Origin: Patescibacteria group bacterium
GTDB taxonomy: Bacteria; Patescibacteriota; Patescibacteriia; 2-01-FULL-39-33
Assembly: GCA_041645075.1 (NCBI GenBank)
Contig: JBAZQS010000001.1
Coordinates: 9,147 to 73,146 of the forward strand
Length of the DNA stretch: 64,000 nt
Reading direction: 5' to 3'
Below the pieces are notes generated by a model. That model had not been told where the DNA came from and did no database searches. It worked only from the letters and a program-made list of their open reading frames with translations. Positions 18,812 to 62,473 of this stretch are shown here, one piece after another. The position numbers were made by a program, and so were the translations under genes. The first letter of the stretch is position 1, and each line of letters starts with the position of its first letter.

Positions 18812-18823
18812 TTATTAATTTTA

Positions 18824-19020: not shown

Positions 19021-19029
19021 GGATTCGAA

Positions 19030-38700: not shown

Positions 38701-39193
38701 CGCGCCCTTGGCCGGCTCGGGCCTAGAATCCATTACCCAGAATTGCTTTTTGCCGGGTAGCGGGCCGAAAAATGCCGGTAGCGGCGCTTGCGTTTATCAA
38801 AATCAAAATAACCCGGAAGCCACGCTCACCACCGGCTGTGTCACCGATGCTGATATTGCTCTCGCGAATCGGGTAAAATTGCCCAATCCCGCTTCTTATG
38901 CCACGCTTTATTGCGATAGAGATGAAATTAACGGCGCTAAAAAATGCGGTCTTAATGATAACGGCACTAATAATCCCAAAGTATATTGTATGGCTTTTCA
39001 CGCGACTTCTACCAAGCCCGAAGTTAATGGCCGGTCGCAAAAAGGCAGCTGGGTTATCAGCCAAGACCATTCGGCTGTTCTATCCGATTTAACCGATGAT
39101 AATGAGAATATAGGTAAAACCGGCTGTTGTTTTGGCAAATGTTTTGATAATAATGGCACGCTTCTTAATTATAATGATGATATAGCCAAATAG
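35702..39193 (+). CDS. Giant surface protein 1 (1163 aa): signal peptide + helical-hairpin membrane anchor module, Gly-rich linker, Cys-rich tandem repeats
   Basis: The N-terminal ~125 aa are paralogous to the N-terminus of ORF 39303..51581 (YAGF(I/L)WMTAGGDEKKIETAKKI). Three tandem ~40-aa repeats C..N.GWC..WGG(T/S)C...C at DNA 37790-38160. A terminator hairpin at 39228-39252 follows. Confidence 0.8.
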   Translation: MFKSRPSLMQRSSITKILLVVFLVIFLFLILPTTTWAQNLDLGLESARGIGLAETPLKVIIARIIQIVLGFLGILTVILIMYAGFIWMTAGGDEKKIETAKKILRDAIIGLIIILAAFIIVSFILRGWETGGGGPGGRGPGGGPDLWGLGQDPVESVYPANRQRDVPINTMIAVTFKEKIKPSTICQIADTATRCNGEAIKRDARNNLNVEICKLTAGTTACETTGEFRKEDFAATKVYNNDDYTFVFITYQNDNRKYLGLEDKQNRVFQVTLNQGIMKADGSETVFKNSTNRMYRWSFTTNGELDLDPPEVQSTNAVLNPESIDNVSGIWPSPDERADTYVSAGVATRTQLMFTVGSGSFNQEIVASATPPAPVSPNTTNATLSGTYSGIGDGTVTVNIIGNAVSVAWPGVTQQYTSAYDSGLNVNIGPYGLNFRLNEVVAGSNSWTFNVVAPKTGDRVQFLDDNRVIRTYTIGRDTIVSAVAVNGDGGRLNTLKNIVTKILTDYGTIFQRCAVDPDLLCLETKTTGSATNRYAVKFLIQNTTAISTVFNAAVTAGQNILERITVNGIRDAYRNTKFQINFNEAVNPLVIDKILVKYDKDYNVANATEAANTAETSILNTATTTKIKYKITNKYRTVELTGNIECGVNACGDKIYCWPVNNKIDTNEDGTIDVLNDFAHKATYYEVETPAANLKKCGTANEGWCRTWGGTCAIDGPCGKAVPNAANQIVYYPKSIPTCVGDNDSWCEGSWGGTCNAALGNKCTRVVSGNLEIYKPSDKPEDWGICPTVNAGWCLAWGGSCLANAPCTKILASNKFYYPSLETPFSNGMTDMALNSFNGSFNYFQDPTNQRYYGLANGQEKNAYILNLAKPYYNPLDPSGSGFGDNFQWSFWLSDKIDLQPPLLMNIDPIKDKEVDNLLYKPKLNFNKVMSYGTLRAGWLYGQTIEERNKRYILLTPLRNGWAVGYNTNSSNDVDRRDGEPKYTHTFVEHDSPFSVPASYAPLAGSGLESITQNCFLPGSGPKNAGSGACVYQNQNNPEATLTTGCVTDADIALANRVKLPNPASYATLYCDRDEINGAKKCGLNDNGTNNPKVYCMAFHATSTKPEVNGRSQKGSWVISQDHSAVLSDLTDDNENIGKTGCCFGKCFDNNGTLLNYNDDIAK

Positions 39194-45300: not shown

Positions 45301-48300
45301 ATGGCATTAAAGAGTCGTCGCTTGAAGAGTGCGATGATCGCAACACCATAAACGGCGACGGCTGCAGTAGTAATTGCCTTTTAGAGGGTTCGGATCAAAA
45401 ATATGGCTCTCTTTGCGGCAACCAAAGAATACAAACAGGCGAGAGTTGCGATGACGGCAACACCGCAAACGGCGACGGCTGTTCTGATAAATGCTTGCCA
45501 GAATCCGGCCGGCCAAACGGTTCACGGCCAAACGCGCCCATTTGTGGCAATGGCAAGATAGAAATCGGCGAGGATTGCGATGATGGCAATAAAGTTAATG
45601 ACGATGGTTGCAATTTCCGCTGTTTAAATGAGGGTTCAAGCGGTGGCGCCAGGTGCGGCAATAATGTGGTGGAAAAGGGCCAGCCCACTAGTTTCTCTTG
45701 GACTTTTGCAGTAGACCAAAGCGCTGAAACTTGCGTGCCAGTAGTATTTAATATTAGTAATTGTCCTAATGGCATTTGGGAGGCGGTGGTGGGCGTTAAC
45801 ACTACCATGAATTTAAATAATTTTGCGATTTGCGAGCATGATAATACAGTTTTTAATAATGTCGCTTTTGGCAATAGTTTATGGGGTAAGATTTTAGGCA
45901 AGATAAAATTAGTCGTAAATAAATTTACCAATAGAAAATCCGTCTTTGCCGGAGTTGGCGATCTTTGTGGTAATGGCTGGACGATTCGACCCAATGGTGA
46001 ATTTGATATTTTGGAATATAGCAGTACGGATAATCAGAAAATTTTTGATTTTATTAAAAAAGCGGATTGGGCTGGTGGTCATGAGTATAAAATTGTGGGA
46101 GATATAAACCGCAACGGCGGGTTTGATGAAGGAATTGACACCCAGGCCTCGGTAATAATGAGAACGCATGGCCGTTGTTGGATTGAAGGCGCAAAGATAA
46201 ACGTCTGGCCCATGGGCGAGGAAAAATATAATGATACTTTTTTCTGCTACGGCGAAAATTGCGGTAAGCGAACCGTAAGCTTATATGATGATGATATTTC
46301 CGCCGATTGGAACACTCTTTTTCCTTATTTGAAATATAATGATATTGCCGTTAGCGACCCCCTCAAACCGGGTAACCAGCATTTGTATCAGGCCTGGGCT
46401 TTAAGCACCAGTAGTGATTTATTGAAATCAAATATCGCATGGAGTATGAGCAATCCGAGTTATGTCAGTCAGCAGGATTTTAATTATTCTACCGGAGTTG
46501 GCGATGGCAATAGAAACAAATGGTTCACGGGCGGTAATGTGGGTGGCGACGGCTACATAACCGCCAAAGTCACCTCTGATTCTAATATAGACATCGGTAA
46601 AGCCACAGCCACGACCACAGTCAAAGTGTTTTTATGCGAAAATCCCTGGCCGTCGCCCGAGAATTTTCCTTATTATGATTCTGCTAATAATTGCAAGACC
46701 AATAGCGGTGGCTGTGTTAATACCAATTTTGAACTTTATTATTGCCGTGATAGCGGGGCGGCCGGACCAGATGGCGATTTGCCGGCGGTTTATGACCCGG
46801 TGGTTATCGGTTATAGCGCTCTTACCCCGGCCAGAAATGTCAACGATTTAATAAAAGAATTTATATTTACCAGGCAGTTTTCCCTAGCCGAAGCGACAAG
46901 AAATATCAAGCAGACGATTACGGGCGATAAGACCATTACCGATGTCGGAGATGGTAGAAACGGGTGTTATATTCAACCTGGCTACGCCGTGACATTTATC
47001 GAAAGTGATAGGTGTGATTTTGTTTATGAAATTAATTTTCCCAAATCAGGGGATTATTATTTGCTTTTAAAGACCGCCAACGACAATAACTCGCTTGAAA
47101 AAGCGGGTTTGGATATCAATCATGAAATGGACATCAGGGTAGATGGCGTGATTAAGGGGACAATTATCGCCAAAGCCAGCCTGCCAAATAATCCCCAGAC
47201 CAATATAGTCAAATTATCCAATATTTCGGCTGGGAAGCATGCCATAAAAATTGACTGGACAAATGATTTTTATTGTTCCGGTCCCGGTGGCGCTTCGTGC
47301 CCGTCCTGGACTCCTATAGATACGGTCACCGGTGAATATAAATATTTTGATTCTAATTTAAGAATTTACAGCCTGGCTTTGGCCGAGGGTTCAAATGACG
47401 ACGCCATTGGCGTCAGAGTCGTGGCTAACAGTAATCATTTTTCACCGCTATTTTGGTATCGGAAATATTTTGACCCAAATAATCAGGGCAGTCCCAGCGG
47501 CCTGCTCGCCAATGATTATCAGGGCGTCAGAGAGGGCCGGACGGTTTATGTCAATGCCGCCGATTTAAATGATAATAAGAAAGAGATTTATAGCAATGTG
47601 TACTTGCTTTCTTATAGCGCCGCTGCCGATGCCATTACCAAAGATATTTATAATGGCCTGCTGGCTAATTTTCATTTTAATGTACAAAATCCGTTTGGCG
47701 TCTGCAGCGCTGACGCCACCTATAAATGCTTGACCGACACCAACTGCCAGCAAGCCAATAAGGGCTATTGCTTATTAAATTACAGCCAAGGCGGTTTGCC
47801 CGACTTCGGCGTCTGCAGTGATGATGCCACCTATGAATGTTTGACTGACACCAATTGCCAAAAAGCCAACAAGGGCTATTGCTTGTCGGATAAAGCCAAG
47901 TTAACCCGAGACACCAAACGGCTGGCCGACTTGCAATTCATTAATTCACTTTTGGCTACTTATAATAATACCAAGAGATGCAATAACGACCATTCGCGCT
48001 TATGTGCCGGCGACTCCGGTTGCTATGGCGGCGGTTCTTGCGGCAACTATTATCCGAATTTATTAGCCGGTTCTTATATTGTCGGCCGAACCTTTAGCGC
48101 TTGGCCGTCTTGGCAGGCGACTTTGGGCAACACCATTGGCTCGGCTTTGCCCATTGACCCCCTAAACGGTTTTAAGGGCTGTGGCGACCAATATGACAAA
48201 ATCACCTGCTGGGATAATTTAAATAAATTAATGCGGTGTCCGGACGAGACGACGTATGTTTATACTTATTCCTCAACGGCGATAAACGGCAAAAGCGAAA

Positions 48301-51300
48301 CCAAGAACATATTTGCCCATCGGGAATATGCTCCGACGCCAGCCGCTTCCTGGCAGCCGGTTTGGAGCCAGGTTGAGTACATGAAGGATAATCCCGATCC
48401 ATTCAAAGATCCGTTTACGAATTTCAGCGTTGCCCAGATGTGCCAACCCACGCCGACTTGCGGCAATAACACAATTGAGGCGGGAGAAAATTGTTACAAT
48501 TGCTGGGCCGATGCCGGCTGTGGCAATAGCGCGCTAAATGCGGGCGAAAGCTGTCAACGAAGCGTTGTTGCCGGTGTAGAAAATTGGTCGTGCCGTTGTC
48601 CGGATAGCGACCGTATTCCCTATGCAAATGATAAAACCAAATTAATATCTGATGGATTTCCGGACGTGGCTTGCGGCGGTAAAGCGAGAGATAATTGTCC
48701 TTATGTTTTTAATCTTGATCAAACGGATAGCGATAGCGATGGCATTGGTAATGCTTGTGATAGCTGTCCGACAAGTGCCAATGTCGATCAAAAAGACAGC
48801 GATCGCGACGGCGTGGGCGATGCCTGTGATAATTGTGTCAGTAAATATAATTTGCGAGTAAATGGAAATCAGCCGAATTCTGATGGCGATAATTTTGGCG
48901 ATGCCTGTGATAATTGTTCGACCGTGGCCAATAATGATCAGACGGATGCCGACAGCGATGGCGTGGGTAATGTGTGCGACAACTGTCCGACCATTAAAAA
49001 TCAAAATCAAAATGATATTAATCGCAATGGCCGGGGCGACGCTTGCGAGGTTTATGTTGCGAGTTATTGCGGCAATAGCGTTGTGGAAAATATAAATACG
49101 GGCGGTTATGGCAGTGAGGTTTGCGATGAAGGAGCCGATAATGGCAAGCCCAATCGTTGCAACAGCACTTGCACCGGAATTTTTTCCACTTTCTGCGGCG
49201 ATGGCCAAATGGTAACTGGTGATAATGAACAGTGCGACTGCGGCATTGACCCGGCGCGTTTGCCCGTGGGACCGGCCTGTACGACTTCATGGCCGGCAGG
49301 AGCGGGCTCGCGTCCGACCTGGGATACAGTCAGTTTTACTACGATTAATGGCGTGCCGCCGGATTTGTATTCCACCGATCAAAAAACATTATGGTATTGC
49401 AGCGCCGGTTGCCAACAAACCCGCCAAGACAGCCGTTATTGCGGCGATAGCCGGGTTGATAGCTTAAACGGCGAGCAATGCGATTTAGGAGTACAAACCG
49501 GTCTGACAGACACCACCTATAATTATGACTATGGTACCTGCAATACTCAATGCCAGAGGACTTATTGCGGCGATGGCAAAAAACAGGACCCTAATGGCAT
49601 GGGCCGGGGCGGTCCAAATAATGACGGCAAAGAAGCGTGCGACGGCAGTGATTATGGTTCCGGTGGCCAGCCAATTGGTAAGACGTGCAATAATAATTGT
49701 CAAATTGTGGCAAACACCGTAAATGTAAATTTAGGCGTTTGTGGCGATGGCGTCAAACAAACACCGAATACCAGCGGACTCAATGAAACTTGCGATGAGG
49801 GGGCTTTAAACGGCCAACCTGGCCACTGCAATTCAACTTGTACCGGAGTTTTATTAGATCAATTTTTATATTATGGCCGTATTCATTTTGGAGAAATGTG
49901 TGATGGCACGGTTCATGCTTATTTAGCTACTTATAGCCCATTAATATTAGATAGCGGTTGGTTAAGTATGGCTTCAAAACTTGATAACGCCATGTTTTTG
50001 GTTAATCAAAAAAGCGATGATCCTTGCTCTAAGGGTTCGGATACCCCGGTGCCGGCAGGATATAATGTCGTGGGTGGCATTCATTTGGGCGACAAGGAAA
50101 GAGACGTGGCTTCGGACAATTCTTACTGCTCTTTTATTGCGGCTGTTGGTTATAACGGCACGGCTTGGAATACGGCCATGGGAACGGCCGGGACGAATTT
50201 AGAAGGACCTGGTTGGGTGAAAATCGCGGCTAAAGACGATTCTATTAAATTAGCTATGGTTTATGGGGTAAATCCCGAAAGTCCGCGCGCATCATGTCCG
50301 TCGGGCTATACCGAACAAGGGGCCATATTTGTTGGCTTAACGACTGTGACTGATAATCTGCCTCGGGCGTACATTGGTGGGACTTCCATAAGCAAGGGCT
50401 GGGTTTCTTTCTGTGTGAAAAATAATATTCCGGCGCAGACGAAATTCGAAGTGGGTCAAAGAGATGATTGCAGCATTGTCCAGGCAAATCGTTATTCTTG
50501 CCCGGCCGATTATAAAATGATTTTCGTGTCCACTTCGGGCAGTAGTAGTAATGATGGTTTAAGTGAAGCCGACCCCAGAGCCACCTTAGACCAAGCGCAA
50601 GCCGTGGTCGCGGCCAATCCTTCAGAGCCGGGTTATTGTATTTTATTAAAAGGCGGAGATACATTTACTACTTTTACCTCTCATGGTACAGCAGTTGAAA
50701 CGGGCGAAACTGATGTTAATTCGCATTATGCATTTTTGTGGAATATTAATAAGCCGTTGGTTATGAAGTCTTATGGCGCGCCAAACGCGATTTTACAGCA
50801 ACCATCTGCCCAGTCGGCAACTATGCCGCCCGCGGCCATTGCTATCGCGCGACCAGAATCAAGCCCGTTGACTAGCAAGGTTATTATTTCTAACCTAACT
50901 TTTAAAAATTGGCAGGCCCGGGTTATTTATATGTCTAGTGTGAGGAACGTGGAGATAAATAATAATATTATTGAAGGTGCGGGCACAAAACAATTAGGTG
51001 ATAATGGCGGAGTTTATGGAGATGGAGTTATCTACCCCGAAGATTCTAGTGGCATAGTTGTTGATGGCAATCAAATAACCGATTCACTTAATAGGACTGG
51101 TGATAAGTATGATGATATCCATGCGGTGTATATAAACAGATCTTCCAATATTGAAATAAAAAACAATACGATTACCAATATTTCTGGGCCGGCTCTCAAG
51201 ATGGTTAGAAACCAGACATCCGATATATCAATCCATGATAATACTCTGAATTATATTGGTCCTTATATCGGACAATCGGAAGTCCAATTTGGATTTGTGA

Positions 51301-51581
51301 GGTTGGCCGATAAGGGGGGCGGTTGTCCTACCGGCATAAGAATTTATAGTAATACATTTTGGTATCCGTATTGTACTGGCAGTTCTTGTTCTAATAAGCA
51401 GGTTAATCGCTGTTCGTCCGAGGGCTGTAGCAGTTTTTGCGGATCTAATGATACGCCGAATTCAAGCGGAACGTATGATAATGTAAATGGTAATTTTGGC
51501 GACAATCAGCCGACAGTATTATGGAAAAATGGCGTTTCTGGGGCGTGGGGTACAAATAATTTCAGAGGCGGATGGCAGTAA
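39303..51581 (+). CDS. Giant surface adhesin-like protein 2 (4092 aa): anchor module, Cys-rich regions, LamG/concanavalin-like lectin domain, Myxococcus-type Cys-rich repeats, thrombospondin type-3 Ca-binding repeats, C-terminal parallel beta-helix
   Basis: - Uninterrupted 12.3-kb ORF.
- LamG-like: GLIGYWNFDDGDAKDSSGAGNDG...FDGVDDYIEIP...VSAWIY...LDDVRIYNRVLSDTEIKEL.
- Myxo Cys repeat x3: CGDGIKESSLEECDDRNTINGDGCSSNCLLE.
- TSP3 repeats: DQTDSDSDGIGNACDSC, DQKDSDRDGVGDACDNC, DQTDADSDGVGNVCDNC.
- Beta-helix tail homologous to 19386..20954. Confidence 0.85.
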   Translation: MTAIVKKKKFIAFVLILVLAGIFILFNPILAQDQFGLNSAAGIGLAQNDLKTTIVNIVRIFLGFLGLVAVILIIYAGFLWMTAGGDEKKIETAKKIILGAVIGLIIILSAFAIVSFVLTRLAPPPAEPCVSGTIVSCGPQGCGSKICVNGSWGVCNINTSACDFILNNKLSYIKYFRSDKIPAAGNTFSNWTRNISYNFSGVVGVPKIDDLSVGAYARNRGGFITDTRLYKVEGFDGTVFTDYGPFNPNQTPNEEFDTQIAWDTSALNLQSEWKIKTHVVPSGIATPFESPAIKTKIRAPNCFNGIQDSQSPYGETGIDCGGNPASQYYCGACGGESCSNGGDSSQCLDENCATSVCLPINCLCAQNPIIDWIEPDNGAAGNYVTIGGRYFGNLKGAVYFGNTRANLELNPECNSTWTSNQIIVEVPAIAQNTYQVTVQTHQDFGGLTSNSKDFILNNIVRPGLCNVYNLDIYTDRNVKINAGSANQTGQLIGANFPTTGLKNVVWKFLPTNTTSTGSNWAIDRARDLVPENKRGMTNLNVYNGAQYSNPFRFLVSPGGIGDPCGFADDSPGICSAAEVCQTGLECNILATPTKPACTCQSAANFCNNNGQVEGTEECDGTAFKDNKNQCSNYPGFTGGALSCNRQCRPDTSQCVSVSTTNIPAGMGIFTWSFNTIISPPTPYSCGYDQYGACSISGCATGQRCEVQGNSDEFIEFYNPTGYTVNNFGAWLLVINKTNTSTISNFLPAGASASIPARGFFVLPRSAQFGLPPAYSGAVTIKLVRSANTAYDDKITYGGPGKLPLAIAPTSLGRKIDGLESRSIFSDPLVFTDFSVFARSTKGVSNSAEPAKTGARLLINEISVGIDPCTCRPAALATCANGLLDVGEICDRVGNEDVFQRGTGLCSDYNIGSTGRLSCRNCQIDKSSCQGPLVDITQAAIGMYTWSFNTISQSPFQRPYVVEDCSRTRSCDVGAKMASPTPWSEEWNQVKHPNLYIPQPLACVDAVISARFSNRMNPATINNNTVIVLKCDNTNGKDCRKVSGAVEVYKDNNNLDYDIFKFTPTADLTPNAWYKVVLKSEEIKDYVGLKLDNKTTLLSLSERYCAEITYNGGITTDKDYCWNFQTRPSNVKCNPGCVECSPDPERFRYRFEAKPFKANLDSEDNVCLMLNSWNYLWNWSTDKSDKIFVYNLANQPVATGIALKETIYDAPDKFAKVITQLEVNPNKTDYCRAYIDLTNLVVIEDQSCDKGTTQSPSPWIMSEDACLNGLISARFNLPVADETVKSSGNLIVEKCGGVKDEALAGVGCERQSVNSAQIHIFPYSHLPLSENLRNLIFEQGLSPAFPEGFLINQSENFNPNTWYRVILLGGDNGVRASKIITLADGTESDTNEPQGKLLTPNPNTRTDYNQDGEDDYIWLFKTGSQICEVDSVEVAPADKFMKYTYETQVYNAFAQAANCNVLNSCKYNWQWRSVIEPTDNSNSGDSIATIKNEKDQPSICVGKGGEKIGPTLVDPVQLASAVAEGETNIKAIEPGKDLVHPNQPAYGAKWDYGHLQIGFPKLRITDYKPKGKILCTNENIKITFNEDVKSSSIRVTNPALSADNIKVYKCVGDGVCVKKGLIGYWNFDDGDAKDSSGAGNDGIKKNGVVISPYAEKGMVAIFDGVDDYIEIPNTNTSPLTDKITVSAWIYFNDSSFTTQQWVVNQGRDYYGSGWGILLYNGALRFSVNTNNADDGREITIASPVSSRRWYYVTAVYDSINGAKLYIDGVEKANASAKGKIVYKYNEKITFGVMAFYSPTYFKFSGMLDDVRIYNRVLSDTEIKELAGSTQQNATCYTNDDCPTSLDDMPLNLKVNYPAYVYGYSSGVWTPVWTPELSKELDLSIVNALEPKAKYRVVVNGGPAGPIAWNTNQLGDLNYNVGNGRGEECEPGLYPWKVLSGSCENAFYALQKCVLPYYYNSCPDPANPNDLKNLIKECNRGEAYCDQNCHNTGNTNIASCGDGIKESSLEECDDRNTINGDGCSSNCLLEGSDQKYGSLCGNQRIQTGESCDDGNTANGDGCSDKCLPESGRPNGSRPNAPICGNGKIEIGEDCDDGNKVNDDGCNFRCLNEGSSGGARCGNNVVEKGQPTSFSWTFAVDQSAETCVPVVFNISNCPNGIWEAVVGVNTTMNLNNFAICEHDNTVFNNVAFGNSLWGKILGKIKLVVNKFTNRKSVFAGVGDLCGNGWTIRPNGEFDILEYSSTDNQKIFDFIKKADWAGGHEYKIVGDINRNGGFDEGIDTQASVIMRTHGRCWIEGAKINVWPMGEEKYNDTFFCYGENCGKRTVSLYDDDISADWNTLFPYLKYNDIAVSDPLKPGNQHLYQAWALSTSSDLLKSNIAWSMSNPSYVSQQDFNYSTGVGDGNRNKWFTGGNVGGDGYITAKVTSDSNIDIGKATATTTVKVFLCENPWPSPENFPYYDSANNCKTNSGGCVNTNFELYYCRDSGAAGPDGDLPAVYDPVVIGYSALTPARNVNDLIKEFIFTRQFSLAEATRNIKQTITGDKTITDVGDGRNGCYIQPGYAVTFIESDRCDFVYEINFPKSGDYYLLLKTANDNNSLEKAGLDINHEMDIRVDGVIKGTIIAKASLPNNPQTNIVKLSNISAGKHAIKIDWTNDFYCSGPGGASCPSWTPIDTVTGEYKYFDSNLRIYSLALAEGSNDDAIGVRVVANSNHFSPLFWYRKYFDPNNQGSPSGLLANDYQGVREGRTVYVNAADLNDNKKEIYSNVYLLSYSAAADAITKDIYNGLLANFHFNVQNPFGVCSADATYKCLTDTNCQQANKGYCLLNYSQGGLPDFGVCSDDATYECLTDTNCQKANKGYCLSDKAKLTRDTKRLADLQFINSLLATYNNTKRCNNDHSRLCAGDSGCYGGGSCGNYYPNLLAGSYIVGRTFSAWPSWQATLGNTIGSALPIDPLNGFKGCGDQYDKITCWDNLNKLMRCPDETTYVYTYSSTAINGKSETKNIFAHREYAPTPAASWQPVWSQVEYMKDNPDPFKDPFTNFSVAQMCQPTPTCGNNTIEAGENCYNCWADAGCGNSALNAGESCQRSVVAGVENWSCRCPDSDRIPYANDKTKLISDGFPDVACGGKARDNCPYVFNLDQTDSDSDGIGNACDSCPTSANVDQKDSDRDGVGDACDNCVSKYNLRVNGNQPNSDGDNFGDACDNCSTVANNDQTDADSDGVGNVCDNCPTIKNQNQNDINRNGRGDACEVYVASYCGNSVVENINTGGYGSEVCDEGADNGKPNRCNSTCTGIFSTFCGDGQMVTGDNEQCDCGIDPARLPVGPACTTSWPAGAGSRPTWDTVSFTTINGVPPDLYSTDQKTLWYCSAGCQQTRQDSRYCGDSRVDSLNGEQCDLGVQTGLTDTTYNYDYGTCNTQCQRTYCGDGKKQDPNGMGRGGPNNDGKEACDGSDYGSGGQPIGKTCNNNCQIVANTVNVNLGVCGDGVKQTPNTSGLNETCDEGALNGQPGHCNSTCTGVLLDQFLYYGRIHFGEMCDGTVHAYLATYSPLILDSGWLSMASKLDNAMFLVNQKSDDPCSKGSDTPVPAGYNVVGGIHLGDKERDVASDNSYCSFIAAVGYNGTAWNTAMGTAGTNLEGPGWVKIAAKDDSIKLAMVYGVNPESPRASCPSGYTEQGAIFVGLTTVTDNLPRAYIGGTSISKGWVSFCVKNNIPAQTKFEVGQRDDCSIVQANRYSCPADYKMIFVSTSGSSSNDGLSEADPRATLDQAQAVVAANPSEPGYCILLKGGDTFTTFTSHGTAVETGETDVNSHYAFLWNINKPLVMKSYGAPNAILQQPSAQSATMPPAAIAIARPESSPLTSKVIISNLTFKNWQARVIYMSSVRNVEINNNIIEGAGTKQLGDNGGVYGDGVIYPEDSSGIVVDGNQITDSLNRTGDKYDDIHAVYINRSSNIEIKNNTITNISGPALKMVRNQTSDISIHDNTLNYIGPYIGQSEVQFGFVRLADKGGGCPTGIRIYSNTFWYPYCTGSSCSNKQVNRCSSEGCSSFCGSNDTPNSSGTYDNVNGNFGDNQPTVLWKNGVSGAWGTNNFRGGWQ

Positions 51582-57180: not shown

Positions 57181-60100
57181 ATGGAACCAAATGTCATCAA
57201 GCAAGTCAGAAAAAGAGAGGGTGATATCGTTGATTTTAGCCAAGATAAAATTACCCAGGCCGTATATAAGGCGCTCAAAGCCGTGGGGCGTGATGATGAA
57301 GCCCTGTCCCTGGAATTATCAGATAAGGTGGTTCGCATTTTAAACAACAAATTTCACTATCGTTCAATTCCGGCCATTGAGGAAATCCAGGATATGGTGG
57401 AAGAGGTTTTAATCAAAGAGGATTTAGTCAAAGCGGCCAAGGCCTATATTATTTATCGGGAACAGCACAGCCGTTTGCGCGATTTGAAAAAATTAATTGA
57501 CTCGGATGATGTCATCAACGGCTATTTAAAACAATTGGACTGGCGGGTTAAGGAAAACGCCAATATGGCCTACTCTTTGCAGGGTTTGAATAACCATGTG
57601 GCGTCGGCGGTGAGTTCGCATTATTGGCTTAACCGGGTTTATCCGCCGGAAATCAGAGAAGCCCATGTGAGCGGCGCTATTCATCTTCATGATTTGCAAA
57701 TTTTGGCGGTTTATTGCTGCGGTTGGGATTTGCAGGCCTTGCTTCGGCTTGGCTTCGGCGGGGTGGAGGGCAAGATTCACAGCAAGCCGGCCAAGCATCT
57801 TCGCGTGGCTTTAAGCCAGATGGTTAATTTTTTCTATACTCTGCAGGGCGAAGCGGCCGGCGCCGAGGCTTTTGCTAATTTTGACACTCTTTTGGCGCCT
57901 TTTGTCCGCTATGACGGCTTAGGTGAAAAAGAAGTCAGGCAAGCCATGCAGGAATTTATTTTCGGCATGAATGTGCCGACTCGAGTAGGATTTCAGACCC
58001 CATTTACAAATTTAACTTTTGATTTGATCTGCCCGTCGATTATGGCCAATGAGGTCGTCATTATCGGCGGCTTGCCCCAGAAAGAGACCTACAAAGAATT
58101 CCAGCCGGAAATGGATATGATTAATCGGGCTTTTGCCGAGGTAATGATGGCCGGCGACGCCAATGGCCGGGTCTTTACTTTTCCCATCCCGACCTATAAT
58201 ATTTCAGTCGATTTTAATTGGGACAATAAAGTCCTTGACCCGATTTGGGAAATGACGGCCAAGTACGGGATTCCTTATTTCGCTAATTTTGTAAATAGCG
58301 ATATGAAGCCCGAGGATGCGAGGAGTATGTGCATTTCACCGAAAGAAGAAGTCCTGGTCCGCAATCGCGCCAATATAAAACGTTTAAGCTTCGGCCAGAT
58401 GGTGGATAAATATCGAAAGACCGAATTTGACCAAGACGGCTGGGCCGACTGCGATTTAAACAAGAATCTTGAACTGCTTTCCTTAAATCCCGAAACCGGT
58501 AAAATGGAATGGGCGAGGGCAAAAAGATTTCTTAAAGTGGAAGACAACCGGCAAATTCGGATTATCGCCGAAGACGGCAAGAGTTTCGAGGTTTCCTCAA
58601 AGCACATTGTCCCGGTTCTGACCGAAAACGGCATCATTAATAAATTCGCCAAAGATATTAAAAACGGCGATTATCTGCTTAACTTAAAAAAAGCCGATGA
58701 GATATTAAACACCGCCTATCAACATATTGATGATTTTGTTCTTAACGAAGATCTAGCGAAAATTTTGGGATTTTTTACGGCTGACGGCAATTACCTTTTT
58801 GAAAACAGAAAAAATATGAAGGCCTTGGGTCAGCCGAGAGGGATGCAATTTACTTTTAACGCGCAGACGAAAAAGGATTTGGCTGAAGTCAAGGAATTAA
58901 TAGAAAAAGTTTTTAAAACGGCGGTTAAAGAAAAAAAAGATCCGCGTTACAACAGTTATTATTTGTATATTTATAATACCGGCTTGGCGAGAAAATTATT
59001 TGACGCGGGATTTAAAAAATACGGCCATCTGCCCGATATTATTTTCAATTCGCCAATCGCGGTGATTGAGAGTTTTTTGGATTATCATTTTCGAGGCGAC
59101 GGACACGAAAAGAGAAAAGAAATTCATATTAATGATAAAGAATTAGCCCGCGACTTGGTGATTCTTTATTCGTTAATCGGTCGGCCTGTAACTTATCGGG
59201 AAAGAAAGAAAAGCCAAGTTGTTTACATTCAGCACCAAAAATCAAAAATAAATAAAAAAGGAATTTTAAGTAATCCCGTGATCGCCGAAAGAGTGCCCGG
59301 ATTTTTAGCCAAGTCCACTTATTTGGTCCCCGGTTTGAATAAATCAAGAATGGTCGGGTTCGACGCCTTGGACAAATATCAGGCGCAAACAAAATTCAGT
59401 TTAAGTATTAAAAACAGCGATTATTACATTGTTAGAGTGAAAAAAGTGGTTCAGAAAATTTTTACAAAAGCGCGCGCGTTTTTTGACGTGGAATTGGAAA
59501 CAAATCATCTTTTTGTTCATTCTTTGGGAGTGATTACTCATAATTGTTGCCGGCTTCGGCTCGACAACCGCGAACTGCGCAAGCGCGGCGGCGGCCTTTT
59601 CGCGGCCAACCCTCTCACCGGTTCTATCGGCGTGGTCACCATTAATATGTCGCGTATCGGCTATTTATCAAAAACCCGGGACGAATATTTTAACCGTTTG
59701 GGCCAGACCATGGATTTGGCCAAGCAAAGTTTGCAGTTAAAGCGGGAAATACTGGAAAGTTTTACCGAGCAGGGGCTTTATCCCTACAGTAAATATTATT
59801 TAAAAGATATTAAGGAGAGATTTGGCGAGTATTGGCGAAATCATTTTAATACCATTGGCCTTAATGGCATGAATGAGTCGTTGCTCAACTTTATGAAGCG
59901 GCCGCTTTCCACCAAAGAAGGGCAGGAATTTGCCCTGGAAGTGATGGATTTTATGCTTCAAAGATTGGGAAAATATCAGGAGGGCGACAATCAATTATAT
60001 AATTTAGAAGCCACGCCGGCCGAAGGCGCCACTTATCGTTTTGCCAAAAAAGATAAAGAATTGTATCCGGATATAATTGTGGCCAATGAGGAGGCCTACC

Positions 60101-60444
60101 AAGAAAGCGGCGCCGCGCCTTATTATACGAATTCCACGCATCTGCCCGTTAATTTTTCCACGGATATTTTTGAGGTTTTGGAAAAGCAGGATGTTTTACA
60201 GACAAAATATACGGGCGGCACGGTTGTCCACGGTTTCTTGGGCGAGCGGATGCCGGACGCCGAGAGCACGAAAAATTTAGTCAGAAAAATCGCGGAAAAT
60301 TTCCATTTGCCTTATTATACTTTGACGCCGACTTTTTCCATTTGTCCCAAGCACGGTTATCTGGCCGGCGAGCATAGATTCTGCCCGATTTGCGATGAAG
60401 AGATTGGTTATATCAGGGAGCAGGAAGAAAAATTGCCTCTTTAA
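57181..60444 (+). CDS. nrdD: Anaerobic ribonucleoside-triphosphate reductase NrdD (class III) containing an intein and lacking the glycyl-radical C-terminal peptide, which is on a separate ORF
   Basis: N-terminal ATP-cone. Class III RNR body. C-terminal Zn-ribbon-like CPKHGYLAGEHRFCPIC, then stop. Exteins flank the intein as ...EDARSM | CCRLRLDNREL. Confidence 0.85.
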   Translation: MEPNVIKQVRKREGDIVDFSQDKITQAVYKALKAVGRDDEALSLELSDKVVRILNNKFHYRSIPAIEEIQDMVEEVLIKEDLVKAAKAYIIYREQHSRLRDLKKLIDSDDVINGYLKQLDWRVKENANMAYSLQGLNNHVASAVSSHYWLNRVYPPEIREAHVSGAIHLHDLQILAVYCCGWDLQALLRLGFGGVEGKIHSKPAKHLRVALSQMVNFFYTLQGEAAGAEAFANFDTLLAPFVRYDGLGEKEVRQAMQEFIFGMNVPTRVGFQTPFTNLTFDLICPSIMANEVVIIGGLPQKETYKEFQPEMDMINRAFAEVMMAGDANGRVFTFPIPTYNISVDFNWDNKVLDPIWEMTAKYGIPYFANFVNSDMKPEDARSMCISPKEEVLVRNRANIKRLSFGQMVDKYRKTEFDQDGWADCDLNKNLELLSLNPETGKMEWARAKRFLKVEDNRQIRIIAEDGKSFEVSSKHIVPVLTENGIINKFAKDIKNGDYLLNLKKADEILNTAYQHIDDFVLNEDLAKILGFFTADGNYLFENRKNMKALGQPRGMQFTFNAQTKKDLAEVKELIEKVFKTAVKEKKDPRYNSYYLYIYNTGLARKLFDAGFKKYGHLPDIIFNSPIAVIESFLDYHFRGDGHEKRKEIHINDKELARDLVILYSLIGRPVTYRERKKSQVVYIQHQKSKINKKGILSNPVIAERVPGFLAKSTYLVPGLNKSRMVGFDALDKYQAQTKFSLSIKNSDYYIVRVKKVVQKIFTKARAFFDVELETNHLFVHSLGVITHNCCRLRLDNRELRKRGGGLFAANPLTGSIGVVTINMSRIGYLSKTRDEYFNRLGQTMDLAKQSLQLKREILESFTEQGLYPYSKYYLKDIKERFGEYWRNHFNTIGLNGMNESLLNFMKRPLSTKEGQEFALEVMDFMLQRLGKYQEGDNQLYNLEATPAEGATYRFAKKDKELYPDIIVANEEAYQESGAAPYYTNSTHLPVNFSTDIFEVLEKQDVLQTKYTGGTVVHGFLGERMPDAESTKNLVRKIAENFHLPYYTLTPTFSICPKHGYLAGEHRFCPICDEEIGYIREQEEKLPL
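58330..59544 (+). mobile_element. Intein (405 aa) with LAGLIDADG homing-endonuclease domain inside nrdD
   Basis: Starts at Cys (CISPKEEVL...) and ends ...SLGVITHN, followed by +1 Cys (CCRL). Internal LAKILGFFTADGNY and ESFLDYHFRGDGH LAGLIDADG-like blocks. Length is a multiple of three (1215 nt). Confidence 0.8.
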
Positions 60445-60477
60445 ATTCGTAATTTTTAATTCGTAATTATATATTTT

Positions 60478-60639
60478 ATGGAAGGTGAACAAACAAAATC
60501 GGAAAGACAGCCCTGCGAGGTTTATTCGCGGGTTGTCGGTTATCTCCGCCCGGTGGACCAATGGAATCCGGGCAAGCAGTCGGAATTTATAGACCGTAAG
60601 TCCTTTGCGGTTTGCGGTTGCGCGGCTGAGCCGTTATAA
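60478..60639 (+). CDS. Small ORF (53 aa) encoding the NrdD glycyl-radical C-terminal peptide (RVVGYL motif)
   Basis: MEGEQTKSERQPCEVYSRVVGYLRPVDQWNPGKQSEFIDRKSF... parallels the E. coli NrdD C-terminus ...TRRVCGYLGSPDARPFNAGKQEEVKRRV. It lies 32 nt downstream of the nrdD stop and in a different frame; it is below the ORF-track size cutoff. Confidence 0.7.
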   Translation: MEGEQTKSERQPCEVYSRVVGYLRPVDQWNPGKQSEFIDRKSFAVCGCAAEPL

Positions 60640-60646
60640 ATCCGTT

Positions 60647-61342
60647 ATGAAAATAGGCGGATTACAGCCGGTAACCCTACTGGATTATCCCCAGAAAGTG
60701 GCAGCGATAATATTCACCCTTGGTTGCGATATGCGCTGTCCTTTTTGTTATAATCCGAATTTGGTCTGGCCCGATTTAATCAAGAAAGCAAATTTGTTGC
60801 CGGAAACGGACTTGTTTTCTTTTTTAAAGCGCCGCCGGAAATATTTAGACGGCGTTTGCCTGACAGGCGGCGAGCCGCTGCTCCAGCCGGACCTGATTTC
60901 TTTTTTGGAGAAAATAAAAAAACTTGGTTATTCAGTTAAATTAGACACCAATGGCTTGAGGCCGGATATTTTGAAAAAATTAATGGCCGGCGGGTTGATT
61001 GATTACGCGGCCATGGACATCAAGGGCCCGTTAGAACAATATGAAAAATTCTGCGGCGTAAAAATAAACGGCGGTGAGATTAAAAAAAGTATCGGCCTGA
61101 TTATAAAGAGCGGTCTGGATTATGAATTTAGAAGCACTTTAGTCAAGGGATTGCATAAAAAATCTGATATTGTTAAGATGGCAAAGTTAATTAAAGGCGC
61201 CGGTAAATATTTTTTACAAAATTTTAATCCGCAAGCGGTTTTGGTGGGCGGAAAATTTAAGGGCGCAAGTTTTACGCAAAAAGAAATGGCGGAGTTTTGC
61301 CGCTTGGCGGGAAAATATGTCAATATGTGTAAAGTTAGGTAG
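60647..61342 (+). CDS. nrdG: Anaerobic ribonucleotide reductase activating protein NrdG (radical SAM)
   Basis: CxxxCxxC cluster GCDMRCPFCYNP. Likely start MKIGGLQPVTLLDYP (60647); the ORF track starts at 60605. Confidence 0.85.
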   Translation: MKIGGLQPVTLLDYPQKVAAIIFTLGCDMRCPFCYNPNLVWPDLIKKANLLPETDLFSFLKRRRKYLDGVCLTGGEPLLQPDLISFLEKIKKLGYSVKLDTNGLRPDILKKLMAGGLIDYAAMDIKGPLEQYEKFCGVKINGGEIKKSIGLIIKSGLDYEFRSTLVKGLHKKSDIVKMAKLIKGAGKYFLQNFNPQAVLVGGKFKGASFTQKEMAEFCRLAGKYVNMCKVR

Positions 61343-61362: not shown

Positions 61363-62473
61363 ATGAAAGAAATATTTTCACAAATCAAAGATTTACAAGG
61401 CAAAATCTCTGGAAGCTGGAGGTTGCTTTGACTTGGATAAATCGCAAAAAGAAATAAGCAAACTGGAACAGGAAATTTTCCAGCCGGATTTTTGGCAAGA
61501 GGCAAATCGGGCGAAAGCGATAAGCAAAAAATACGAGGATTTGAAAAAGGAATTTGACCAGTGGCGGATTTTAAAAAACGAAATTGATGATTTATCGGAA
61601 TTGGCGGAGGTAGCCGAAAATGATGAAAATTTGGCTAAGGAAATTAATGAAAAATTTACCAAAGCGGAAAAAAAGTTTTCCAAATTAGAATTTCAAGTTT
61701 TATTTTCCGGAGTCCACGATAAAAATAATGCTATTTTGTCTATTCACGCGGGCACGGGCGGGGTAGACGCGCAGGACTGGGCCGAGATACTTTTGCGAAT
61801 GTATTTAAGATTTTGCGAAATACACGGTTTTGAGGCGAGAGTGATTGATAAGAGCGCGGGCAGTGAAGCCGGCGTAAAAAGTGTCGTGGTAGAGGTTATT
61901 GGCCGCCATGCTTATGGTTGGCTTCGGTCGGAAAATGGCGTTCATCGCCTGGTGCGCATTTCGCCCTTTGACGCGGAAAAAATGAGACACACCTCCTTTG
62001 CTTTAGTGGAAGTGCTTCCTGAATTGGCCGAAGAGAAAGACCCGTCGGCGCCGGCAGGAATCGGACTTAAAGATTCGGATTTAAGAATCGAGGTCATGCG
62101 CGCGGGCGGCCACGGCGGCCAAAGCGTTAATACCACGGATTCAGCGGTGCGTATCACTCATATTCCCACGGGCATTGTCGTCAAGTGCCAGAATGAGCGG
62201 TCGCAACTGCAGAATAAAAATAACGCCTTTAAAATTTTAAAAGCCAAACTGCTTAAAATCAGCGAGGAAAAAGAAAGCGAAGAAATTAAAAAAATAAAAG
62301 GCGATTATCAGAAAGCCGAATGGGGCAATCAGGCGCGGTCTTATGTGATGCAACCGTATAAATTAGTCAAAGACCACCGCACTAATTACGAAACGCCGGA
62401 TATTGACCGCGTGCTTAACGGCGAAATTGATGATTTTGTGGAAAATTATTTGAGATATAAAATTGCAAAATAA
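61363..62473 (+). CDS. prfB: Peptide chain release factor 2 with programmed +1 ribosomal frameshift
   Basis: Frame 0 is MKEIFSQIKDLQGKISGSWRLL-TGA. The shift site ggagg-ttg-CTT-TGA-C at 61415-61432 continues in +1 as DLDKSQKE... The body has SPF (RISPFD) and GGQ (HGGQSVN) motifs. Confidence 0.85.

What the first reader, a model, noticed from the sequence alone, without database searches (positions are those of the whole stretch)
58330..59544. LAGLIDADG intein inserted at the SM|CC active-site motif of nrdD
- The 405-codon in-frame insertion begins with Cys (CISPKE...) and ends with HN followed by Cys, matching splice-junction rules. It carries two LAGLIDADG-like blocks.
- Excision joins ...EDARSM to CCRLRLDNREL, a conserved class III RNR motif, so the intein targets a catalytic-site codon as is typical.
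Basis: partly seen in the sequence, partly recalled or inferred. Interest (0 to 1): 0.5.

Follow-up and report, generated by a model that had tools for sequence, protein, structure and literature searches.

The report
Homing-endonuclease intein splitting NrdD's catalytic loop
The anaerobic ribonucleotide reductase gene of this Patescibacteria-like bacterium carries an ordinary self-splicing protein element (an intein with a LAGLIDADG homing endonuclease) inserted exactly inside the enzyme's catalytic Met-Cys-Cys-Arg loop; this is a correct call and a new example of a well-known kind of element.

Summary
nrdD (57181..60444, +) is a 1087-codon ORF with a 405-codon in-frame insert at exactly 58330..59544. 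The insert starts with Cys, ends with His-Asn and is followed by Cys-Cys.

- **Junction:** removing the insert gives a 682-aa protein. It is collinear, with no gap or extra residue, with many intein-less orthologs of 681-683 aa (80-87% identity) that read ...DMKPEDARSMCCRLRLDNREL....
- **Intein identity:** the insert passes Pfam Intein_splicing (48.3 bits, cut-off 35.8). Its AlphaFold model (pLDDT 91.5) matches endonuclease-containing inteins (PhoVMA, TliVMA, PI-PfuI, PI-PkoII; Foldseek E down to 7.5e-24).
- **Endonuclease:** both LAGLIDADG motifs keep their acidic residue.
- **Site:** the insertion point is M|CCR, the class III finger-loop motif. Residue -1 is the conserved Met, +1 the first Cys and +2 the thiyl-radical Cys.
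- **Distribution and selection:** related inteins sit at this site in other Patescibacteria and in some archaea. Against a ~93% identical relative, the intein shows dS like the extein and dN/dS of 0.02-0.14.

Verdict: a real, probably splicing-competent and possibly still mobile intein. It is a new member of a known kind, of modest interest.

A more unusual thing seen in passing: this NrdD is split. Its glycyl-radical motif lies on a separate 53-aa ORF (60478..60639).

The parts
57181..58329 (+). nrdD N-extein (383 codons): ATP-cone plus the first part of the class III RNR barrel, ending ...DMKPEDARSM. Met383 is the conserved Met of the MCCR finger-loop motif.
   Evidence: Pfam ATP-cone 69.8 bits and NRDD 577.5 bits; NCBIfam PRK08270 1010 bits. 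Collinear with intein-less orthologs.
58330..59544 (+). Intein, 405 codons (precursor residues 384-788): Hint splicing domain interrupted by a LAGLIDADG homing-endonuclease domain.
   Evidence: Pfam Intein_splicing 48.3 bits, above the 35.8 cut-off. AF2 pLDDT 91.5. Foldseek hits: PhoVMA 7qst E 7.5e-24, TliVMA, PI-PfuI 1dq3, PI-PkoII 2cw7. Absent from orthologs. GC 38.5% against 46.2% for the extein.
58330..58332 (+). Block A nucleophile Cys1 (TGC).
   Evidence: Sequence. Conserved as C[IL]xxxEE in all homologous inteins.
58594..58605 (+). Block B motif SSKH (T/S-x-x-H), intein residues 89-92.
   Evidence: The homologs have SEKH, STKH, TPNH, SLKH and TPEH at the same column.
58714..59229 (+). 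LAGLIDADG endonuclease core (intein residues ~129-300; boundaries approximate), two alpha-beta-beta-alpha-beta-beta-alpha halves in the model.
   Evidence: Secondary structure of the model. Foldseek I-DmoI E 3e-5, TMt 0.69. phmmer to PI-PkoII covers 138-401. Pfam LAGLIDADG_3 is 17.1 bits (below the 22.5 cut-off) here, but 40.5 and 42.7 bits in homologs P0004 and P0013. dN/dS 0.09 and 0.0.
58753..58794 (+). LAGLIDADG motif 1, LAKILGFFTADGNY. Asp152 is the putative metal-binding catalytic residue.
   Evidence: The ADGN sequence is kept in most of the homologs that cover this column; P0017 has AEGN and P0266 ANGN.
59065..59109 (+). LAGLIDADG motif 2, IESFLDYHFRGDGHE. Asp257 is the putative second catalytic residue.
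   Evidence: GDG is conserved in the close homologs.
59230..59421 (+). Linker or extra region between the endonuclease core and the Hint C-lobe (intein residues ~301-364). It contains the only lower-confidence stretch of the model and may be a DNA-recognition region.
   Evidence: pLDDT 63-75 at residues 301-320. One non-synonymous against 4 synonymous changes relative to L002. Its function is inferred only.
59479..59544 (+). Block F (FFDVELETNHLFV, with Asp386 and His393) and block G (SLGVITHN, with penultimate His404 and terminal Asn405).
   Evidence: NCBIfam intein_Cterm TIGR01443 scores 18.6 bits in the precursor, above the 15.6 cut-off. Conserved F[FY]D[IVL]EL...H[ST][LM]G in homologs.
59545..59550 (+). 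Cys+1 (TGT) and Cys+2 (TGC), the CC of the MCCR finger loop. Cys+1 is the splicing nucleophile. Cys+2 aligns with the thiyl-radical Cys (T4 Cys290, tmNrdD Cys330).
   Evidence: phmmer alignment to 4coi/4u3e. PMC4493059: SCCR aligns with MGCR, and C329A and C330A are both inactive. PMC9669993: the MCCR motif.
59545..60444 (+). nrdD C-extein (299 codons plus stop), ending after three Cys of the Zn site (...CPKHGYLAGEHRFCPICDEEIGYIREQEEKLPL*). It carries no glycyl-radical motif.
60478..60639 (+). Separate 53-aa ORF carrying the fourth Zn-site Cys and the glycyl-radical motif (QPCEVYSRVVGYLRPV). It is probably the trans-acting glycyl-radical chain that the spliced NrdD needs.
   Evidence: Pfam NRDD 39.6 bits, profile positions 530-562 of 562. 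NCBIfam PRK08270 positions 648-682 of 684. Conserved as a stand-alone ORF in L002, L003 and 291 protein clusters.
60647..61342 (+). nrdG, the radical-SAM activase of NrdD. The start is probably ATG 60647; the mechanical ORF begins at TTG 60605.
   Evidence: NCBIfam NrdG2 TIGR02495 205.7 bits, matching from residue 17. The ortholog in L003 is 231 aa.

Best explanation
The insert is a class 1 intein with a nested LAGLIDADG homing endonuclease. It is inserted between Met383 and the first Cys of the Met-Cys-Cys-Arg finger loop of a class III (anaerobic) ribonucleotide reductase.

**Splicing (inferred).** nrdD is translated as a 1087-aa precursor that cannot be active, because the finger loop is interrupted. 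The two Hint lobes (intein residues ~1-128 and ~365-405) fold together and catalyse four steps:
1. An N-S acyl shift at Met383-Cys1.
2. Trans-thioesterification to Cys+1.
3. Cyclisation of Asn405, assisted by His404.
4. An S-N shift that restores a normal peptide bond.

The product is a 682-aa NrdD chain with an intact MCCR loop. This chain then works with the separately encoded 53-aa glycyl-radical chain and with NrdG.

**Homing (inferred).** The released 405-aa intein is a monomeric two-motif LAGLIDADG endonuclease. It is expected to cut the intein-less nrdD allele at the sequence spanning ...AGT ATG|TGT TGC.... Repair from the intein-containing allele then copies the element into the cut allele.

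**Shown here:** ORF continuity, the junction residues, domain and fold identity, precise absence from orthologs, presence at the same site in other lineages, and purifying selection.

**Not shown here:** splicing itself, endonuclease activity and homing.
For: - **Coordinates and junction residues:**
- **Family membership:** Pfam Intein_splicing above threshold; NCBIfam intein_Cterm above threshold in the precursor.
- **Similarity to solved inteins:** phmmer hits to PI-PkoII, the Pab PolC intein and the TFIIB mini-inteins.
- **Fold:** AF2 pLDDT 91.5, pTM 0.90. The top Foldseek hits are all endonuclease-containing inteins, followed by mini-inteins and I-DmoI.
- **Empty site in orthologs:** intein-less orthologs of 681-683 aa at 80-87% identity are collinear across the junction, and so is the DNA of L003.
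- **Same site elsewhere:** homologous inteins occupy the same M|CC site in Falkowbacteria, Gribaldobacteria, Parcubacteria, Micrarchaeota and Bathyarchaeota proteins, and in the representatives fetched from the exhaustive search.
- **Selection:** against the ~93% identical relative L001/L002, the intein dS (0.27-0.42) equals the extein dS (0.29-0.40). dN/dS is 0.14 for residues 1-211 and 0.02 for residues 225-405, including 0.09 and 0.0 in the endonuclease core.
- **Catalytic role of the site:** PMC4493059 and PMC9669993.
- **Mechanism and conserved blocks:** PMC4031507.
Against: - No experimental or transcript/proteome evidence for splicing.
- Pfam LAGLIDADG_3 and LAGLIDADG_1 are below threshold in this copy (17.1 and 17.6 bits). 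NCBIfam intein_Nterm is also below threshold (16.6 bits against 24.5).
- Block B has Ser instead of the more common Thr.
- Purifying selection on the endonuclease core could reflect a structural role in folding or splicing rather than nuclease activity.
- Equal dS in intein and extein points to vertical inheritance since the split from the L001/L002 lineage, so recent homing is not demonstrated.
Confidence: 0.9

Rival explanations
1. It is a splicing-competent intein whose endonuclease domain no longer cuts DNA. The domain would be retained because it is needed for folding or splicing, so the element is now inherited only vertically.
For: - dS of the intein equals that of the extein against L001/L002, consistent with co-inheritance rather than recent invasion.
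- LAGLIDADG Pfam scores are below threshold in this copy.
- The intein family is small: 22 clusters at E <= 1e-30 among 1.84 billion representatives.
Against: - Both catalytic Asp residues are kept here, and the first-motif Asp in most homologs.
- dN/dS in the endonuclease core is 0.0-0.09, as low as in the splicing lobes.
- The family occurs at the same site in distantly related hosts of both domains, and close relatives lack it. That patchy pattern is what homing produces.
- A site-a intein that has lost its endonuclease exists in a relative (P0110), so such domains can be deleted when no longer needed.
Confidence: 0.3
2. It is a native NrdD insertion domain, or a decayed non-splicing remnant, which would make nrdD a pseudogene or an enzyme with an extra domain.
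For: None specific. One family member (P0269) does look decayed, with terminal Asn changed to Ser and a scrambled extein.
Against: - All class 1 splicing residues are present.
- Pfam Intein_splicing is above threshold.
- The insert interrupts an invariant catalytic tetrapeptide whose two Cys are each essential.
- Orthologs at 87% identity lack it precisely.
- Strong purifying selection acts on both intein and exteins.
Confidence: 0.02
3. The intein also acts as a conditional (redox-gated) switch. Cys1 would form a disulfide with Cys+1 or Cys+2 under oxidising conditions and block splicing, so the oxygen-sensitive reductase would be matured only when the cell is reduced or anoxic.
For: - Three Cys are clustered at the junctions: Cys1, Cys+1 and Cys+2.
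- The host enzyme is strictly anaerobic.
- Redox- and stress-responsive splicing is documented for other inteins, for example the mycobacterial DnaB intein (PMC6195587) and reviews PMC10663303 and PMC4031507.
Against: - Nothing was tested directly here.
- Cys1/Cys+1 is the commonest nucleophile pair in inteins.
- The CC pair belongs to the host motif and is also present in intein-less orthologs, so it was not selected for the intein.
Confidence: 0.15

Closest known systems
PI-PfuI (Pfu RIR1-1 intein, PDB 1dq3) and other archaeal endonuclease-containing inteins (PhoVMA 7qst, TliVMA 7qss, PI-PkoII 2cw7)
   Same: The architecture is the same: Hint N-lobe, two-motif LAGLIDADG endonuclease, extra region, Hint C-lobe. 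Foldseek E-values are 7.5e-24 to 3e-21 and TM-scores 0.67-0.78. PI-PfuI also sits in a ribonucleotide reductase. phmmer aligns both LAGLIDADG motifs with PI-PkoII.
   Different: Sequence identity is only 16-19%. The host here is a class III (NrdD) enzyme, whereas PI-PfuI's RIR1 host is, as I recall it and did not check here, a class II RNR; the others sit in VMA or DNA polymerase. The host organism is a Patescibacteria-like bacterium rather than a hyperthermophilic archaeon. Nothing about this intein has been tested experimentally.
Reported intervening elements in nrdD: the T4 nrdD group I intron, putative inteins in nrdD of Clostridium phage c-st and Lactococcus phage 949 (PMC3653736), and fragmented nrdD of Jug phages (PMC12880540)
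   Same: The host gene is the same, and so is the general pattern of homing elements interrupting RNR genes at conserved positions.
   Different: Those cases are in phages. Their insertion sites are not given in the passages read. tblastn with this intein and with the junction region found no phage nrdD interrupted at M|CC, so no relationship is shown.
Unannotated allelic inteins in public metagenome proteins (e.g. MBI5765769.1 Falkowbacteria; P0002 Gribaldobacteria; P0013 Micrarchaeota; P0262-P0268)
   Same: They belong to the same intein family (46-90% identity), sit at the same M|CC site and have the same domain order. The exact 1087-aa protein is already in JGI/IMG and ENA, unnamed.
   Different: The sources name them only 'ribonucleoside triphosphate reductase' or 'hypothetical protein', and most are contig-end fragments. 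Some hosts carry up to three further inteins at other NrdD sites. Two distant members (P0279, P0290) appear to be inserted one codon downstream, at C|CR.

Membership tests
Intein (class 1, Hint superfamily) | In-frame insertion in a conserved host protein that is precisely absent from orthologs | tested here: met
   A 405-codon insert. The spliced product is 682 aa, against 681-683 aa in the orthologs (80-87% identity), and reads their sequence across the junction without a gap or an extra residue. The intein-less DNA allele L003 is continuous.
Intein (class 1, Hint superfamily) | Cys/Ser at intein position 1 and Cys/Ser/Thr at +1 | tested here: met
   Cys1 (58330-58332) and Cys+1 (59545-59547).
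Intein (class 1, Hint superfamily) | Block B T-x-x-H, block F Asp, block G penultimate His and terminal Asn | tested here: met
   SSKH (Ser in place of Thr), FFD386VELETNH393, and H404-N405. These residues are conserved in the homologs, although two have Phe for the penultimate His. Residue roles follow PMC4031507.
Intein (class 1, Hint superfamily) | Curated profile match | tested here: met
   Pfam PF14890 Intein_splicing scores 48.3 bits against a 35.8 cut-off. TIGR01443 intein_Cterm scores 18.6 against 15.6 in the precursor, but TIGR01445 intein_Nterm scores 16.6 against 24.5 and is not met.
Intein (class 1, Hint superfamily) | Hint fold formed by N- and C-terminal lobes | tested here: met
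   The AF2 model has pLDDT 91.5. Foldseek matches full inteins and mini-inteins (RadA, PolII, TFIIB, CDC21) at E 1e-8 to 1e-6 with rmsd 2.1-2.5 A.
Intein (class 1, Hint superfamily) | Autocatalytic protein splicing | not testable with these tools
   This needs expression of the precursor and detection of the ligated exteins.
LAGLIDADG homing endonuclease (intein-encoded, monomeric two-motif type) | Two LAGLIDADG motifs, each ending in a conserved acidic residue | tested here: met
   LAKILGFFTAD152GNY and IESFLDYHFRGD257GHE, aligned with the PI-PkoII motifs. The first-motif Asp is kept in most of the homologs that cover the column (P0017 has Glu, P0266 Asn), and the GDG of the second motif is conserved in the close homologs.
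LAGLIDADG homing endonuclease (intein-encoded, monomeric two-motif type) | Curated profile match | tested here: inconclusive
   In the window copy PF14528 scores 17.1 bits (cut-off 22.5) and PF00961 scores 17.6 bits (cut-off 23.1). The homologous inteins P0004 and P0013 pass PF14528 with 40.5 and 42.7 bits.
LAGLIDADG homing endonuclease (intein-encoded, monomeric two-motif type) | Pseudo-dimeric alpha-beta-beta-alpha-beta-beta-alpha fold | tested here: met
   The secondary-structure order of residues 140-300 fits. Foldseek matches I-DmoI at E 3e-5 and TMt 0.66-0.69, as well as I-Tsp061I and WhiA.
LAGLIDADG homing endonuclease (intein-encoded, monomeric two-motif type) | Site-specific cleavage of the intein-less allele, and homing | not testable with these tools
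   There is only indirect support: a presence/absence polymorphism among close relatives and the same site in distant hosts.
Class III ribonucleotide reductase NrdD, double-cysteine (MCCR) subclass (the host) | NrdD profile match, ATP-cone, finger-loop MCCR motif, beta-A Cys, Zn-site cysteines | tested here: met
   NCBIfam PRK08270 scores 1010 bits (cut-off 548) and Pfam NRDD 577.5 bits. SMCCRL is restored after excision. CCGWDL is at residue 179. The motif definition comes from PMC9669993.
Class III ribonucleotide reductase NrdD, double-cysteine (MCCR) subclass (the host) | C-terminal glycyl-radical domain (RVxGY) on the same polypeptide | tested here: not met
   The large ORF stops before the motif. 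SRVVGY lies on a separate 53-aa ORF, 60478..60639. This split is lineage-wide.

The most novel reading that the evidence does not exclude
The intein is more than a parasite. Because Cys1, Cys+1 and Cys+2 cluster at the splice junctions of an oxygen-sensitive enzyme, splicing may be reversibly blocked by a disulfide under oxidising conditions. In that case the catalytic finger loop of NrdD would be assembled only when the cell is anoxic or reduced, giving a post-translational oxygen switch on dNTP supply in a minimal-genome Patescibacteria cell. The long vertical co-inheritance and the very low dN/dS of the intein would then reflect host-level selection.
Probability: 0.12. Interest if true: 0.55.

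Novelty: new member of a known kind. Interest (0 to 1): 0.3.

Why it matters
- **Annotation:** the 1087-aa ORF should be read as a 682-aa NrdD plus a 405-aa intein. Public relatives are named only 'ribonucleoside triphosphate reductase' or 'hypothetical protein', and they break assemblies at the intein.
- **Intein biology:** it adds a documented case of the rule that inteins sit in the most constrained catalytic motifs. Here the conserved Met, the disulfide-forming Cys and the thiyl-radical Cys are the -1, +1 and +2 residues.
- **Distribution:** an intein family is shared between Patescibacteria and DPANN or other archaea, groups in which inteins have scarcely been discussed.
- **Practical use:** it is a candidate Cys1/Cys+1 intein and a candidate LAGLIDADG nuclease with a predictable target.

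It opens no long-standing question.

Tried and rejected
- **Phage origin.** tblastn of the intein against 50,697 phage records gave one weak hit (22% identity). tblastn of the junction region found seven phage nrdD genes, all uninterrupted at this site. No link to the phage nrdD inteins in the literature could be made.
- **Genome-collection scan.** The scan with the intein returned only two contig-end fragments of one MAG, because the pattern search reaches only close relatives. The exhaustive representative search was needed for the wider family.
- **Literature.** Searches for NrdD inteins, for inteins in the Candidate Phyla Radiation and for a split class III RNR found no description of this site, of this family or of the split.
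- **Native insertion domain.** Considered and rejected (see rivals).
- **Register shift of the intein by one residue** (ISPK...HNC). Considered and rejected, because the chemistry needs Cys at position 1 and Asn at the end, and homologs align as C[IL]xxxEE.
- **Readthrough joining the large nrdD ORF to the small glycyl-radical ORF.** They are in the same frame, but this is judged unlikely: there are two in-frame TAA stops here and three in L003.
- **Rfam scan of the window.** It found no intron or other RNA element in nrdD.
Full report
**Observation**

The ORF 57181..60444 (+) encodes 1087 residues. The sequence reads ...GAG GAT GCG AGG AGT ATG | TGC ATT TCA CCG AAA GAA... at 58330 and ...ATT ACT CAT AAT | TGT TGC CGG CTT... 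at 59544/59545. The flagged segment is therefore exactly 1215 nt, or 405 codons, in frame and free of stops. It begins with Cys, ends with His-Asn and is followed by Cys-Cys. It occupies residues 384-788 of the precursor.

**The host gene**

The ORF matches:
- Pfam NRDD (577.5 bits, in two stretches on either side of the insert) and ATP-cone.
- NCBIfam PRK08270 'ribonucleoside triphosphate reductase' (1010 bits, cut-off 548).
- Solved class III RNRs: Prevotella copri 8p23, Thermotoga maritima 4coi/4u3e and T4 1h78.

The gene is followed by nrdG (NrdG2 TIGR02495, 205.7 bits) and preceded by ftsA and ftsZ. The same gene order is seen in an intein-less relative (L003). The exact 1087-aa protein is present, unnamed, in JGI/IMG and ENA. 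The representative of its 90% cluster is a partial Candidatus Falkowbacteria protein, so the window is most likely from a Patescibacteria (CPR) genome.

**Extein junction**

Removing the 405 codons gives a 682-aa protein. A search with it returned thousands of NrdDs. The best are 681-683 aa and 80-87% identical over the full length. They read ...DMK(P/A)EDARSMCCRLRLDNRELRKRGGG... with no gap or extra residue at the junction. At the DNA level the intein-less allele L003 is continuous across ...AGTATG|TGTTGT....

**Is the insert an intein?**

- The insert alone passes Pfam Intein_splicing (48.3 bits against 35.8, E 1.3e-12).
- NCBIfam intein_Cterm passes in the precursor (18.6 against 15.6). intein_Nterm does not (16.6 against 24.5).
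- The N-terminal 120-135 residues match the intein portions of the NCBIfam models for archaeal PolII large subunit and of Tes, and the solved PolII and TFIIB mini-inteins.
- The conserved splicing residues (roles as in PMC4031507) are present: Cys1; block B SSKH, with Ser in the Thr position and the His present; block F FFD386VELETNH393; block G H404-N405; and Cys+1.
- An AlphaFold2 model built on an alignment of eleven family members is confident (mean pLDDT 91.5, pTM 0.90).
- Its best Foldseek matches in the PDB are all endonuclease-containing inteins: PhoVMA 7qst (E 7.5e-24), TliVMA 7qss, PI-PfuI 1dq3 (itself an RNR intein) and PI-PkoII 2cw7. PI-SceI follows, then many mini-inteins at rmsd 2.1-2.5 A, and then free LAGLIDADG enzymes such as I-DmoI.

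**Endonuclease domain**

The two motifs LAKILGFFTAD152GNY and IESFLDYHFRGD257GHE align with the two LAGLIDADG motifs of PI-PkoII. Both keep the acidic residue, which by established knowledge of the family binds the catalytic metal. In this copy the Pfam LAGLIDADG models score below threshold (17.1 and 17.6 bits), but homologous inteins pass LAGLIDADG_3 with 40.5 and 42.7 bits. The model shows the expected alpha-beta-beta-alpha-beta-beta-alpha repeats between residues ~140 and ~300.

**What the insertion site is**

- phmmer aligns ...DARSMCCRL... with tmNrdD ...DAVASCCRL....
- Aurelius et al. [quoted passage not shown] They also show that C329A and C330A are each inactive.
- Burnim et al. (PMC9669993) define MGCR and MCCR as the two finger-loop motifs of class III RNRs. 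The Met is implicated in thiosulfuranyl-radical chemistry, and one of the two Cys in disulfide formation with the beta-A Cys.

The intein therefore splits M|CCR. Residue -1 is the conserved Met, +1 (the splicing nucleophile) is the first Cys, and +2 is the Cys that aligns with the thiyl-radical Cys. 'Catalytic-site codon' is a fair description. The precursor cannot have an intact finger loop.

**Relatives of the intein**

- The word-indexed search found 19 relatives, nearly all contig-end fragments of NrdD from Falkowbacteria, Gribaldobacteria, the Parcubacteria group, Micrarchaeota and Bathyarchaeota. All are inserted at SM|C...N|CC.
- The exhaustive search of 1.84 billion representatives found 162 proteins at E <= 1e-3 but only 22 at E <= 1e-30, so the family is small.
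- The 13 members fetched, which include all the full-length ones among the close hits, are NrdDs. Ten of them are interrupted at M|CC and one (P0269) is a decayed copy at that site.
- Two distant members (P0279, P0290; 28-30% identity) read ...SNC|CLDPE...SFN|CRM... and ...SQC|CLEAKE...SHN|CRL.... This looks like an insertion one codon downstream (C|CR). It cannot be settled without their intein-less orthologs.
- Some hosts carry two to four inteins (P0264, P0265, P0266, P0267). Across these hosts at least six NrdD sites are used, including one next to the beta-A Cys.

**Polymorphism and selection**

A MAG in the genome collection (CAYIRS01; loci L001 and L002) is ~93% identical in DNA to the window over ftsZ-nrdD-nrdG-prfB and has the same intein. 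Its assembly breaks inside the intein. It also has a second, 322-codon intein at VGFQ|C...GN|TPFTN, corresponding to window nt 57996/57997. The window lacks this one. That second intein is also in Buchananbacteria NrdDs of ~1003 aa, and as a 164-aa mini-intein in P0110.

Nei-Gojobori estimates, window against L001/L002:

| Region | dS | dN/dS |
|---|---|---|
| Exteins | 0.29-0.40 | 0.03-0.08 |
| Intein residues 1-211 | 0.42 | 0.14 |
| Intein residues 225-405 | 0.27 | 0.02 |
| Endonuclease core, residues 129-211 | 0.41 | 0.09 |
| Endonuclease core, residues 225-300 | 0.30 | 0.0 (12 synonymous, 0 non-synonymous changes) |

The intein has thus been co-inherited with the gene since these two lineages split. 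It is under purifying selection throughout, endonuclease core included. The intein is more AT-rich than its host gene (38.5% against 46.2% GC).

**Mechanism and confidence**

The best-supported reading is a class 1 intein that splices post-translationally to restore the MCCR loop and releases a LAGLIDADG endonuclease that targets the empty site.
- That the element is an intein of this architecture is shown as far as sequence, fold and comparative data can show it (confidence ~0.9 or higher).
- That it splices is inferred from intact catalytic residues and purifying selection on an essential-looking gene (~0.85).
- That the endonuclease is still active is plausible but untested (~0.6). The alternative is an inactive but structurally retained domain.
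- A redox-gated splicing role is a speculative extension (~0.12). It is suggested only by the Cys cluster, the anaerobic host enzyme and precedent in other inteins (PMC6195587).

**Comparison with what is known**

Inteins in ribonucleotide reductases are long known (RNRdb curated about 80; PMC2795772). Putative inteins, introns and endonucleases in phage nrdD have also been reported (PMC3653736, PMC12880540). I found no paper describing this site, this family or inteins in CPR bacteria. My searches are limited to open-access text, however, and close relatives are already in public databases, merely unannotated. I therefore rate it a new member of a known kind, with modest interest.

**Seen in passing: a split NrdD**

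The large nrdD ORF ends ...FCPICDEEIGYIREQEEKLPL* and contains no glycyl-radical motif. After a 33-nt AT-rich spacer comes a 53-aa ORF (60478..60639) that encodes MEGEQTKSERQPCEVYSRVVGYLRPVDQWNPGKQSEFIDRKSFAVCGCAAEPL.
- It matches the last 33 positions of Pfam NRDD (39.6 bits) and positions 648-682 of 684 in PRK08270.
- Unsplit NrdDs read CPxC-x5-CEVYSRVVGY in one chain (P0009).
- The split is conserved in L002 and L003.
- Stand-alone homologs of 43-78 aa form 291 clusters; those that carry a source name are labelled Patescibacteria, Parcubacteria or plain 'bacterium'.
- The fourth Cys of the Zn site appears to lie on the small chain, which would let the metal site bridge the two chains. This point is inference.
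- No NCBIfam model is dedicated to the small ORF, and I found no paper on a split class III RNR.

This is arguably more unusual than the intein and deserves its own evaluation.

Noticed in passing
window 60445..60639 (+): NrdD is split. The large ORF stops after three Zn-site Cys. The fourth Cys and the glycyl-radical motif (QPCEVYSRVVGYLRPV) are on a separate, same-frame 53-aa ORF (60478..60639), after a 33-nt spacer with two TAA stops. The small ORF ends in a conserved CGC pair. The split is conserved in L002, L003 and 291 clusters of 43-78-aa stand-alone proteins (the named ones are labelled Patescibacteria, Parcubacteria or plain 'bacterium'). No dedicated NCBIfam family and no paper were found.
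   Followed up: partly
window 57996/57997 (between codons for VGFQ and TPFTN); L001 2636..3602: This is an empty site for a second NrdD intein. The ~93% identical relative (L001) and Buchananbacteria NrdDs of ~1003 aa (P0048, P0056, P0074 and others) carry a 322-codon LAGLIDADG-type intein, VGFQ|C...GN|TPFTN, here. P0110 carries a 164-aa mini version. The window lacks it.
   Followed up: partly
proteins P0279, P0290: Distant members of the same intein family in divergent NrdDs appear to be inserted one codon downstream (xC|CR instead of M|CCR). That would make the thiyl-radical Cys itself the +1 nucleophile. It is unresolved without intein-less orthologs.
   Followed up: no
proteins P0264-P0267: These NrdDs carry 2-4 inteins. 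Across these hosts at least six insertion sites are used, including one next to the beta-A active-site Cys (Y|C[VC]GWDL), TLQGE|, PLTG|SIGV and ATPAES|.
   Followed up: no
protein P0017: A partial radical-SAM protein from a Methanomethyliaceae MAG runs directly into the endonuclease domain of this intein family (…SIDAL|DEDLAKILGYFTAEGNY…) without a Hint N-lobe. It is either an assembly chimera or a non-allelic insertion.
   Followed up: no
window 61363..62473 (+): prfB (RF2) has the classical programmed +1 frameshift. The ATG is at 61363, an SD-like GGAGG follows, and CTT TGA C lies at 61426-61432. The mechanical ORF list shows only the downstream frame, from TTG 61433.
   Followed up: partly
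window 60605..60647 (+): The mechanical nrdG ORF starts at TTG 60605 and overlaps the small glycyl-radical ORF. The profile match begins at residue 17 and the ortholog is 231 aa, so ATG 60647 is the likelier start.
   Followed up: partly
L001/L002 (CAYIRS010000059.1, CAYIRS010000001.1): The MAG is titled 'uncultured Gammaproteobacteria bacterium', yet it is ~93% identical in DNA to this window, whose nrdD clusters with a Falkowbacteria protein. The label is probably a mis-binning or mislabel. Its assembly breaks inside the intein.
   Followed up: no
window 39303..51581 (+): A giant 4092-aa ORF, preceded by an 1163-aa ORF (35702..39193). Not examined.
   Followed up: no
window 8002..8381 (-); 23..96, 18728..19082, 21004..21075, 28353..28426: A tmRNA (Rfam 120.4 bits) and six tRNA genes. 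No RNA family hit falls in or near nrdD.
   Followed up: no
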